Source: a virus
Taxonomy: Duplodnaviria > Heunggongvirae > Uroviricota > Caudoviricetes
Virus record (IMG/VR): IMGVR_UViG_2681813269_000009
Reading direction: 5' to 3' (one strand)
DNA length: 10,441 nt
The notes under the pieces were generated by a model, which was not told the DNA's origin, searched no databases, and saw only the letters and a program-made list of their open reading frames with translations. Below, piece by piece: positions 8,044 through 8,183 of the stretch (position 1 is its first letter; every line of letters starts with the position of its first letter). A program made the position numbers and the translations under genes.

Positions 8044-8183
8044 TCCCCCTGTGCGGAGGGGCAATCAGCGAGTAGGTATATGGGATAATCGCGGATTCAG
8101 GTGCTGGTACTGAATTCACCGGGAGGCACCCGGCATCATGCAATGGCACATAGCGCCACTCTCCAGCCCTCTCCGGAGGGGCT
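8044..8183. repeat. R140 repeat, copy A (GC-rich, hairpin-rich, terminator-like 3' end)
   Basis: Near-identical to 9512-9653 (one substitution, one 1-nt indel). Contains stems cccct / agggg and ccctc-tccg-gaggg followed by TTTT. Confidence 0.7.

What the first reader, a model, noticed from the sequence alone, without database searches (positions are those of the whole stretch)
8044..8183. About 140-bp GC-rich hairpin-rich repeat with terminator-like end, present twice (8044-8183 and 9512-9653)
The two copies differ by one substitution and one 1-nt indel and diverge completely after ggaggggct. The unit contains several short inverted repeats and ends in a GC stem plus T-run on the plus strand, so it could be the 3' end of a structured small RNA or a repeat family. 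Copy B sits immediately after an 11-N gap inside the IS, so its placement may be an assembly artefact.
Basis: seen in the sequence. Interest (0 to 1): 0.45.

Follow-up and report, generated by a model that had tools for sequence, protein, structure and literature searches.

The report
Known prophage small RNA, falsely duplicated
The 140-base repeat is STnc100, a known small RNA gene of lambda-like prophages, and its two copies look adjacent only because a draft Shigella assembly interleaved contigs from two prophage remnants that lie about 0.7 Mb apart.

Summary
The repeat is real. Positions 8044-8183 and 9512-9653 differ by one substitution (T8136/C9604) and one 1-nt indel in a C-run.

Both copies match Rfam RF02076, STnc100: 123.6 and 71.2 bits, against a gathering score of 47. 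This is a known multi-copy, Hfq-associated sRNA family of lambdoid prophages, related to EcOnc27/sRNA103 and PasD.

The 1468-bp spacing is a scaffolding artefact. The window is four contigs joined by N-runs. In complete Shigella sonnei genomes, contig 1 continues into contig 3 (copy A). Contig 2 abuts contig 4 (copy B) at 100% identity with no gap. The two loci lie about 0.67-0.78 Mb apart.

Each unit is a covariation-supported five-helix junction of about 110 nt, followed by a variable tail and an intrinsic terminator. Units sit on the late-gene strand between the Q antiterminator and the lysis genes.

STnc100 is not the Q-dependent late leader. A lambda-like pR'/pause/tR' lies directly after Q at 4954-5057.

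The most likely role is a moron-type sRNA gene with its own promoter and terminator, expressed in lysogens. Its molecular function is still unknown.

Verdict: already known, low interest. Abutting cores under one promoter in other genera hint that the fold itself is the functional unit.

The parts
8005..8194 (+). STnc100 copy A, full Rfam match
   Evidence: cmscan RF02076: 123.6 bits, gathering score 47, E=2e-27, model positions 1-206
8033..8143 (+). Structured core of copy A, a five-helix junction. P1 is 8034-8041 with 8134-8141. P2 is about 8045-8060. P3 is about 8061-8092. P4 is 8093-8100 with 8110-8117. P5 is 8119-8123 with 8129-8133.
   Evidence: Own covariance model R1: 86.6 bits. The MFE fold gives the same helices. 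Covariation across 136 distinct units.
7991..8032 (+). Putative promoter of copy A. It has TTGACA at 7991-7996, then either GAGTTT (8014-8019, 17-nt spacer) or an extended -10, TGT-TAAAAG (8019-8027). The start site is inferred at about 8025-8035.
   Evidence: Read from the sequence. Family-wide, -10-like hexamers pile up 1-8 nt upstream of P1. The consensus scan did not call this promoter, so it is inferred only.
8165..8190 (+). Intrinsic terminator of copy A, weakened by a 1-nt deletion in the 5' arm
   Evidence: Terminator scan. Hairpin energy -9.8 versus -15.3 kcal/mol for copy B. The same deletion is present in S. sonnei 53G, which is 100% identical over 7957-8373.
8256..8363 (+). Degenerate second STnc100-like unit in tandem with copy A; IS600 is inserted about 10 nt after its core, removing the downstream tail and terminator
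   Evidence: R1: 30 bits, E=8e-5. Rfam sub-threshold hit at 8233-8421, 21.8 bits. The orthologous unit in E. coli NU14 (L005 4278-4451) lies between two full units.
8374..9500 (-). IS600 (IS3 family), cut off by the contig end
   Evidence: 99.9% identical to elements annotated as IS3-like element IS600. The transposase ORF 8416-9234 carries rve and HTH_21 domains.
9501..9511 (.). 11-N run, a false join between contig 3 and contig 4
   Evidence: N-runs listed. In complete genomes contig 4 follows contig 2, not contig 3.
9512..9662 (+). STnc100 copy B, 5'-truncated by the contig boundary
   Evidence: cmscan RF02076: 71.2 bits. R1: 56.2 bits over model positions 12-105.
9632..9663 (+). Intrinsic terminator of copy B: perfect 9-bp stem plus T-rich tail
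   Evidence: Terminator scan; fold
7862..7914 (+). Putative promoter (TTGACT at 7862-7867) and first 11 nt (GGCATGGTGAA) of copy B, at the end of contig 2
   Evidence: 7835-7914 is 93% identical to 7964-8043. 7914 abuts 9512 in E. coli 042 and in S. sonnei CP104423.1 at 100% identity.
7915..7956 (.). 42-N run, a false join between contig 2 and contig 3
6834..6982 (.). 149-N run, a false join between contig 1 and contig 2. The true continuation of contig 1 is about 65 bp followed by contig 3.
   Evidence: Contig 1 (1664-6833) matches L126 2143-7312. Contig 3 (7957-9500) matches L126 7378-8920.
4954..5057 (+). The real Q-dependent late promoter region: lambda-like -10 (TAAATT), pause element (AACGATGGG) and tR' terminator (5030-5049 plus T-run)
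   Evidence: Alignment with lambda 44499-44599; terminator scan
4128..4949 (+). Late antiterminator Q (273 aa)
   Evidence: Pfam PF03589 Antiterm, E=6e-55
10412..10441 (-). End of a second IS600 copy, inserted in the DUF1737 gene of locus 2
   Evidence: 10406-10441 is 97% identical to 8368-8403. 100% identity to S. sonnei locus 2.

Best explanation
The 140-nt unit is a gene of the known sRNA family STnc100 (Rfam RF02076). This family is carried in many copies by lambdoid prophages of Enterobacterales.

Each gene behaves as a small, self-contained transcription unit (a 'moron') inside the leader of the phage late operon. It lies on the late-gene strand, downstream of the antiterminator Q, its pR'/tR' and the tRNA cargo, and upstream of the DUF1737/holin/lysis genes.

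A sigma-70-type promoter ends a few nt before helix P1. The transcript folds into a compact five-helix junction of about 110 nt, followed by a variable tail of about 25-45 nt and an intrinsic terminator. In a lysogen the RNA should therefore accumulate as a discrete species of about 150-190 nt, while its terminator keeps the lysis genes silent. Q-modified polymerase would read through.

By homology with EcOnc27/sRNA103 and PasD, it most likely acts in trans as an Hfq-associated regulator of host and prophage mRNAs.

The two copies in the window are not a local duplication. They belong to two different prophage remnants of a Shigella sonnei-like genome, about 0.7 Mb apart, and the scaffold interleaved their contigs.

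Shown here: family identity, fold, synteny and the scaffolding artefact. Inferred: the exact transcription start, expression in this strain, Hfq dependence and targets.

Confidence by step: identity about 0.97, artefact about 0.93, trans-acting Hfq sRNA mechanism about 0.55.
For: Identity:
- RF02076 hits of 123.6 and 71.2 bits against a gathering score of 47.
- The same family is annotated or hit at the same position in E. coli 042, E. coli NU14 and the phages PhiR12_4 and Stx2 F004.

Fold:
- With my own model on 136 distinct units, 24 of 29 pairs show compensatory changes.
- 93.5% of cells are paired, against 41-45% when the partners are slid by 1-3 columns.
- 0 of 500 shuffles reach the observed value (MAFFT-only version).
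- Frequent G-U pairs (for example 58 at pair 127-170) fit RNA read from the + strand.
- The A/B substitution changes a P1 G-C pair to G-U.

Transcription unit:
- -10-like hexamers cluster 1-8 nt upstream of P1.
- A stringent terminator lies within 130 nt in 64 of 137 units, at a median of 44 nt after the core.

Synteny:
- In 25 loci, 101 of 109 unit-gene pairs are on the same strand.
- 97 of 101 are in the order Q/Rus/NinG, then unit, then holin/lysozyme/Rz.

Not the late leader:
- A lambda-like pR'/pause/tR' lies at 4954-5057.

Artefact:
- There are three N-runs.
- Contig 1 to contig 3 is contiguous in S. sonnei CP104423.1 and 53G at 99.2-100% identity.
- Contig 2 abuts contig 4 at 100% identity.
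- The loci lie at 1.86 and 2.53 Mb in CP104423.1, and at 2.10 and 1.32 Mb in HE616528.1.
- The contig order equals the order of start points on a shared reference locus, as a reference-guided orderer would produce.

Literature:
- EDL933 has 11 STnc100 copies, all with RNA-seq reads (most at several hundred to about 1,900 RPKM), and one (STnc100_4) verified by Northern blot (PMC5331693).
- An Hfq-bound sRNA, EcOnc27/sRNA103, overlaps STnc100 downstream of stx2B (PMC12711010, PMC7873438).
- PasD is a structural relative, is Hfq-dependent and is a RIL-seq hub (PMC8550237; bioRxiv 10.64898/2026.05.13.724894).
Against: - No expression, transcription-start or Hfq data exist for these two copies or for Shigella.
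- The E. coli/Shigella promoter is weak by consensus. Its candidate -10 is TAAAAG or GAGTTT, and the scan did not call it.
- Copy A is not more stable than shuffled sequence (z = +0.10) and has a weakened terminator, so it may be decaying.
- The most conserved part of the family is the structured core, not a single-stranded seed, and the tails differ between paralogues. That is unusual for a seed-pairing sRNA.
- In some genera, cores abut at 117-130 nt spacing under one promoter and one terminator. This fits a fold-based function better than independent sRNA genes.
- The loci used for the comparative work were fetched with an exact 19-nt pattern from P5, which inflates P5 conservation. The 26 units lacking the pattern still keep it largely.
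Confidence: 0.8

Rival explanations
1. STnc100 acts through its conserved five-helix fold rather than through seed pairing. It could be a protein-binding or decoy RNA, or a cis-acting element of the late operon, for example in processing, as a terminator barrier, or by interacting with polymerase.
For: - The core is far better conserved than the tail. Conserved unpaired motifs include GAAU, the P2 loop UNNGCG and the P5 loop AGGCA, and these persist in the 26 units not selected by the search pattern.
- Position and strand between Q and the lysis genes are strict across genera.
- Arrays of abutting cores lie under one promoter and one terminator (L091 3236-3650).
- The function is listed as unknown in reviews (PMC9029176, PMC7873438).
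Against: - Homologues are recovered with Hfq, and PasD shows many RIL-seq partners (PMC8550237, PMC7873438).
- About half of the units carry their own terminator, and most have a -10-like element, as independent sRNA genes would.
- No candidate protein or ligand partner was identified here.
Confidence: 0.2
2. The unit is the Q-dependent late-promoter leader, the counterpart of lambda 6S RNA or StxS. In that case its promoter would be pR' and its terminator tR'.
For: - Its size (about 150-190 nt) and its terminator resemble lambda 6S RNA (from my own knowledge).
- It lies in the late region, on the late strand.
Against: - A lambda-like pR' lies directly after Q at 4954-5057. It has the same -10 (TAAATT) and the AACGATGGG pause element at the same spacing as in lambda, plus its own terminator.
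- STnc100 lies about 3 kb further on, behind a methylase gene and tRNAs.
- In Stx2 phages it lies downstream of stx2B.
- Up to three to six units occur per locus.
Confidence: 0.03
3. The two copies are a genuine local duplication flanking IS600 in this isolate, so the scaffold is correct.
For: - Natural tandem STnc100 units do exist. NU14 has three within 680 bp, and there are arrays in other genera.
- Copy A is itself followed by a degenerate second unit.
Against: - Every junction involved is an N-run.
- Contig 2 begins with a 93-96% paralogue of the end of contig 1, not its continuation.
- Contig 2 to contig 4 and contig 1 to contig 3 are each contiguous at 99-100% identity in several complete S. 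sonnei genomes, at loci 0.67-0.78 Mb apart.
Confidence: 0.04
4. The region encodes a small protein. PGAP annotates a hypothetical or pseudo CDS over the unit, and ORFs 7862-8113 and 8101-8262 overlap it.
For: - 'Hypothetical protein' annotations lie under the match in many genomes.
- Some EDL933 copies show ribosome footprints (PMC5331693).
Against: - Core lengths vary from 94 to 139 nt with no multiple-of-three pattern.
- Variation is compensatory across helices.
- The PGAP features are flagged as partial or pseudo and lie on the opposite strand.
Confidence: 0.02

Closest known systems
STnc100 (Rfam RF02076), Gammaproteobacterial sRNA
   Same: Both copies score above the family's gathering threshold. 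They have the same helices, the same prophage late-region context and the same multi-copy distribution.
   Different: Nothing substantive. Copy A has a G-U pair in P1 and a weakened terminator. Copy B appears 5'-truncated only because of a contig boundary.
EcOnc27 / sRNA103 of EHEC Stx2 phages (Tree 2014; Gruber & Sperandio 2015, as cited in PMC7873438 and PMC12711010)
   Same: It is an Hfq-bound sRNA overlapping the STnc100 hit between the cargo genes and the lysis genes. The Stx2 phage F004 copy scores 207.7 bits at the equivalent position.
   Different: The Stx2-phage copy forms a convergent dyad with AsxR on the opposite strand. No AsxR or AgvB match occurs in the window. The variable P3/P4 helices and the tail differ.
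PasD1/PasD2 of EPEC (PMC8550237; bioRxiv 10.64898/2026.05.13.724894)
   Same: They are reported structural homologues of STnc100, are prophage-encoded near a PF03589-type Q, and show Hfq-dependent stability.
   Different: They are reported to be too diverged in sequence for BLAST, with different seed regions. I had no PasD sequence, so I made no direct comparison.
Lambda 6S RNA / StxS (pR'-tR' leader RNAs)
   Same: It is a short terminated transcript in the late region that is made in lysogens, with a terminator overridden by Q-modified polymerase.
   Different: It is a different element. The window has its own lambda-like pR'/tR' at 4954-5057. STnc100 is a separate unit downstream.
Phage morons (independent promoter-gene-terminator units inserted in late operons; Hendrix and colleagues, from my own knowledge)
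   Same: It has the same architecture and position, and the same expectation of expression from the repressed prophage.
   Different: The cargo is a structured RNA, not a protein, and it can be arrayed.

Membership tests
STnc100 (RF02076) | Covariance-model score at or above the curated gathering score (47 bits) | tested here: met
   Copy A scores 123.6 bits and copy B 71.2 bits.
STnc100 (RF02076) | Closing helix P1 enclosing hairpins P2 to P5, supported by covariation | tested here: met
   24 of 29 pairs show compensatory changes, and 93.5% of cells are paired against 41-45% when slid. Copy A folds this way as its MFE structure. Copy B does too, once the last 11 nt of contig 2 are restored.
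STnc100 (RF02076) | Location in a lambdoid prophage between the antiterminator and the lysis genes, on the late strand | tested here: met
   Window: Q at 4128-4949, with the units downstream. The complete loci show DUF1737 and holin after them.
STnc100 (RF02076) | 3' intrinsic terminator | tested here: met
   8165-8183 plus T-run, and 9632-9653 plus T-run. Copy A's is weakened.
STnc100 (RF02076) | Own promoter and a discrete transcript | tested here: inconclusive
   There is family-wide enrichment of -10-like hexamers just upstream of P1. The window copies have only TAAAAG or GAGTTT candidates, which the scan did not call. No RNA data were available here. Transcripts of homologues are reported in PMC5331693.
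Hfq-dependent trans-acting sRNA | Hfq binding, and regulation of targets by base pairing | not testable with these tools
   There is only literature on homologues (PMC7873438, PMC8550237).
pR'-tR' late leader (lambda 6S RNA / StxS type) | Starts at the Q-responsive promoter immediately downstream of Q, with a -10-like pause element | tested here: not met
   That element lies at 4954-5057. STnc100 starts about 3 kb downstream and lacks the AACGAT pause motif.
AsxR / AgvB anti-sRNAs (RF02703, RF02702) | Covariance-model match on the strand opposite to STnc100 | tested here: not met
   No match with E-value up to 1 in the window. Present in Stx2 phage F004 at 88.1 bits.
IS-associated duplication | Both repeat copies flank one IS in a contiguous sequence | tested here: not met
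   The junctions are N-runs. Complete genomes place the copies 0.67-0.78 Mb apart.

The most novel reading that the evidence does not exclude
The conserved five-helix junction of STnc100, rather than a seed sequence, may be the functional module. It would act as a fold-dependent RNA, for example a protein-binding or decoy RNA or a late-operon cis element, that lambdoid prophages across Enterobacterales keep between Q and the lysis genes. Some genomes array it as abutting cores under a single promoter and terminator.
Probability: 0.2. Interest if true: 0.55.

Novelty: already known. Interest (0 to 1): 0.15.

Why it matters
For this window it matters mainly as quality control. The apparent local duplication is a scaffolding artefact of a repeat-rich, IS-rich Shigella draft, so it should not be read as a tandem sRNA pair or an IS-mediated duplication.

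More generally, STnc100 is one of the most abundant annotated enterobacterial sRNA families and sits next to Shiga-toxin genes, yet it has no assigned mechanism. Three features make it a reasonable target for structure probing and partner pull-downs:
- strong covariation in its fold;
- strict placement between Q and the lysis genes;
- arrayed cores in some genera.

None of this is new as a family.

Tried and rejected
1. Late-promoter leader (6S or StxS-like). Rejected after finding the lambda-like pR'/pause/tR' at 4954-5057.

2. Genuine local or IS600-mediated duplication. Rejected using complete S. sonnei genomes.

3. Sequencing error for the C-run indel. Not supported, because S. sonnei 53G has the same CCC in copy A.

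4. An antisense partner of the AsxR/AgvB type. No hit in the window.

5. A coding ORF. Rejected on length variation and the compensatory substitution pattern.

6. Thermodynamic stability as evidence. Uninformative for copy A (z = +0.10), so I relied on covariation.

7. The consensus sigma-70 scan found no promoter in front of either copy. The promoter claim therefore rests on the family-wide position of -10-like hexamers.

8. The genome contigs pattern scan also returned a few chance hits in Actinobacteria and other contigs that carry no unit (L013, L019, L034, L049, L063, L065).

9. I did not obtain a PasD sequence, so the PasD relationship is taken from the preprint only.

Full report
**Observation.**

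The repeat is real. The repeat finder reports 8044-8169 and 9512-9637 at 99% identity, 1468 nt apart. A direct alignment shows that 8044-8183 and 9512-9653 differ only by T8136/C9604 and by one C in a C-run (8167-8169 versus 9635-9638).

Both copies end in a G+C hairpin followed by a T-run on the + strand. After that the sequences diverge, apart from a 21-nt remnant shared at 81% (8247-8267 / 9663-9683).

**Identity.**

A scan of the whole window against Rfam 15 gives two matches to RF02076, STnc100. Copy A is 8005-8194 at 123.6 bits and covers the full model. Copy B is 9474-9662 at 71.2 bits, with its 5' part lost in the N-run. The gathering score is 47.

A third, sub-threshold match lies at 8233-8421 (21.8 bits).

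The 190-nt unit is present in 2718 of 5426 complete E. coli genomes, with up to 12 places per genome, almost all chromosomal. It also occurs in 284 phage records, mostly Stx-converting phages.

**What the papers say about the family.**

- EDL933 has 11 STnc100 copies. All have RNA-seq reads, most at several hundred to about 1,900 RPKM, and one was verified by Northern blot (PMC5331693).
- In Stx2 phages a copy lies just downstream of stx2B and overlaps the Hfq-bound sRNA EcOnc27/sRNA103 (PMC12711010, PMC7873438, PMC12370729).
- PasD1/PasD2 of EPEC are Hfq-dependent and rich in RIL-seq partners. They were recently proposed to share ancestry with STnc100 (PMC8550237; bioRxiv 10.64898/2026.05.13.724894).
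- No mechanism has been assigned to the family (PMC9029176).

**The two copies are not neighbours.**

The window contains three N-runs: 6834-6982, 7915-7956 and 9501-9511. It is therefore four contigs: c1 is 1-6833, c2 is 6983-7914, c3 is 7957-9500 and c4 is 9512-10441.

c2 does not continue c1. It starts with a 93-96% paralogue of the last 157 nt of c1, the tRNA cluster.

In E. coli 042, position 7914 abuts 9512 exactly. In E. coli NU14, c1 runs into c3 after 64 bp.

Exact-protein look-ups then found complete Shigella sonnei genomes that encode both the window's methylase (5522-6580) and its IraM-like protein (9688-10023, minus strand). In CP104423.1:
- c1 (1664-6833) and c3 (7957-9500) are contiguous at 99.2% and 99.87% identity, with 65 bp between them.
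- c2 and c4 are contiguous at 100% identity with no gap.
- The two loci lie at 1.86 Mb and 2.53 Mb.

In strain 53G (HE616528.1) the loci lie at 2.10 Mb and 1.32 Mb.

The order c1, c2, c3, c4 equals the order of the contigs' start points on a common reference locus. That is what a reference-guided contig orderer would produce from two paralogous loci; this last step is inference.

The IS in c3, and at the end of c4, is IS600.

**Context.**

- Locus 1 (c1 + c3) reads: hok/sok, DUF968, RusA, Q (PF03589), pR'/tR', a 65-aa ORF, an N6 methylase, tRNA-Ile2(CAT), tRNA-Arg(TCG), tRNA-Arg(TCT), STnc100 copy A, a degenerate second unit, IS600. In complete genomes it then continues with a DUF1737-SASA (NanS-p-like) gene and a holin.
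- Locus 2 (c2 + c4) reads: Q, tRNAs, DUF3927, STnc100 copy B, the IraM-like gene on the opposite strand, DUF1737 interrupted by IS600.

Everything except the IraM-like gene and IS600 is on the late-gene strand.

**STnc100 is not the late leader.**

Directly after the Q stop codon (4947-4949) lies a lambda-like late promoter. Aligned with lambda 44499-44599, it shares GGTAAATT, six bases, then AACGATGGG. That corresponds to the lambda pR' -10 and the pause-inducing element at the same spacing. A terminator follows at 5030-5049 plus a T-run.

So the Q-responsive leader, an StxS-like short RNA, lies at 4954-5057. STnc100 is a separate element about 3 kb downstream.

**Anatomy of the unit.**

I fetched 120 loci from one-genome-per-species contigs using a 19-nt pattern from the unit. 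Rfam hits in these loci, and their individual folds, showed a common architecture.

- P1 is a closing helix of 7-9 bp.
- It is followed by AAU.
- P2 is CCCCC...GGGG with the loop UNNGC(G).
- P3 has a GCG/CGC base and a variable top.
- P4 is variable in sequence and 7-10 bp long.
- One unpaired A follows.
- P5 is CCGGG-AGGCA-CCCGG, running straight into the 3' strand of P1.

On a MAFFT alignment of 23 units, 20 of 30 pairs show compensatory changes. 89.8% of cells are paired, against 40-45% when the partners are slid.

A covariance model built from that alignment found 143 units in 100 sources. On that alignment, 24 of 29 pairs have compensatory changes and 93.5% of cells are paired, against 41-45% when slid. 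No shuffle out of 500 reaches the observed value. This alignment was fitted to the model, so it leans towards the structure; the MAFFT-only result is the independent check.

Abundant G-U pairs fit an RNA read from the + strand.

The pattern used for fetching inflates P5 conservation. The 26 units that lack the exact pattern still largely keep GAAU, GCG, GGGGC and ACCGGGAGGCACCCGGC.

In the window:
- The A/B substitution turns a P1 G-C pair into G-U.
- The indel removes one C from the terminator's 5' arm, giving -9.8 versus -15.3 kcal/mol.
- Copy A folds no better than shuffled sequence (z = +0.10). Copy B, completed with the last 11 nt of c2, gives z = -2.70.

**Transcription unit and synteny.**

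Across 132 non-redundant units, -10-like hexamers pile up 1-8 nt upstream of P1. The peaks are 25 and 23 units at two offsets, against a background of about 3-4. This suggests that transcripts start at or just before P1.

For the window copies the candidates are an extended -10, TGT-TAAAAG (8019-8027), or TTGACA-17 nt-GAGTTT. The consensus scan did not call either, so the start site is inferred only.

64 of 137 units have a stringent terminator within 130 nt, at a median of 44 nt after the core.

In 25 loci with recognisable lambdoid genes, 101 of 109 unit-gene pairs are on the same strand. 97 of 101 are in the order Q/RusA/NinG, then unit, then holin/lysozyme/Rz.

Units also occur in arrays of up to six per 8 kb. 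E. coli NU14 has three within 680 bp. In the window, copy A is followed by a degenerate unit at 8256-8363 (30 bits), with IS600 inserted about 10 nt after it. In some Pantoea-type loci the cores abut at 117-130 nt spacing under one promoter and one terminator (L091 3236-3650).

**Mechanism.**

I think the best-supported reading is an sRNA 'moron': an independent promoter-RNA-terminator unit nested in the late-operon leader. It would be expressed from the repressed prophage and terminated so that the lysis genes stay silent, and Q-modified polymerase would read through it. By homology with EcOnc27/sRNA103 and PasD it would act in trans with Hfq.

Shown here: family membership, fold, strand, synteny and terminator. 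Inferred: the promoter and start site, expression in Shigella, Hfq dependence and targets.

The main rival is a fold-based function, as a protein-binding or decoy RNA or a cis element of the late operon. It rests on two observations: the structured core, not a seed, is the conserved part, and cores can be arrayed without their own promoters or terminators. My evidence does not exclude this, and I give it about 0.2.

**Verdict.**

The finding is a correct observation of a known element. The apparent duplication is a scaffolding artefact. Novelty: already known. Interest: low.

Noticed in passing
window 4954-5057 (+): A lambda-like late promoter lies directly after Q. It has the -10 TAAATT and the pause element AACGATGGG at the same spacing as in lambda pR', followed by a strong terminator (5030-5049 plus T-run). 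It would yield a terminated leader of roughly 65-75 nt, comparable to StxS.
   Followed up: partly
window 6834-6982, 7915-7956, 9501-9511: All three N-runs are false joins. The scaffold interleaves contigs of two paralogous prophage late regions that lie 0.67-0.78 Mb apart in complete S. sonnei genomes.
   Followed up: yes
window 8256-8363 (+): A third, degenerate STnc100-like unit lies in tandem with copy A (R1 30 bits; Rfam 21.8 bits, sub-threshold). IS600 is inserted about 10 nt after it, at about 8374. A 21-nt remnant of its start is also left after copy B (9663-9683), where the IraM-like gene cassette replaces the rest.
   Followed up: partly
L091 3236-3650; also L082, L098, L051, L050, L079: In Pantoea, Superficieibacter and related genomes, STnc100 cores occur as arrays. 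Some abut at 117-130 nt spacing under a single promoter and a single terminator. I did not find this described in the papers I read.
   Followed up: partly
window 1789-1964 (+), ORF 1902-2114: A hok/sok type I toxin-antitoxin locus (sok RF01794 at 112.4 bits; the Hok ORF is PF01848 in the matching complete genomes) lies upstream in the same prophage.
   Followed up: no
window 2123-2204 (+): There is a weak isrK-like match (25.7 bits, gathering score 50). In other loci, isrK/C4 and isrI matches lie near STnc100 units: L003 291-478, L072 3969-4166, and isrI in L085/L031/L010.
   Followed up: no
window 8368-8374 and 10406-10412: Both IS600 insertions are in the same orientation and follow a similar target sequence (TATCCTG and TACCCTG).
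   Followed up: no
window about 7010-7086 (+): The c2 paralogue of tRNA-Arg(TCG) (compare 6704-6780 in c1) is not called as a tRNA by ARAGORN or Rfam, so locus 2 seems to carry a decayed middle tRNA.
   Followed up: no
L004 about 4045-4062 (Stx2 phage F004): The HUS-associated variants reported at +90 and +103 after stx2B (PMC12711010) would fall in the putative extended -10/start region just upstream of STnc100 helix P1, by my counting from the stx2B stop codon. They might therefore affect transcription rather than pairing. This is inference only.
   Followed up: partly
L004 4241-4293 (-): In the Stx2 phage, STnc100 is convergent with AsxR (RF02703, 88.1 bits), and their terminators sit back to back. 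The window's copies have no such partner.
   Followed up: partly
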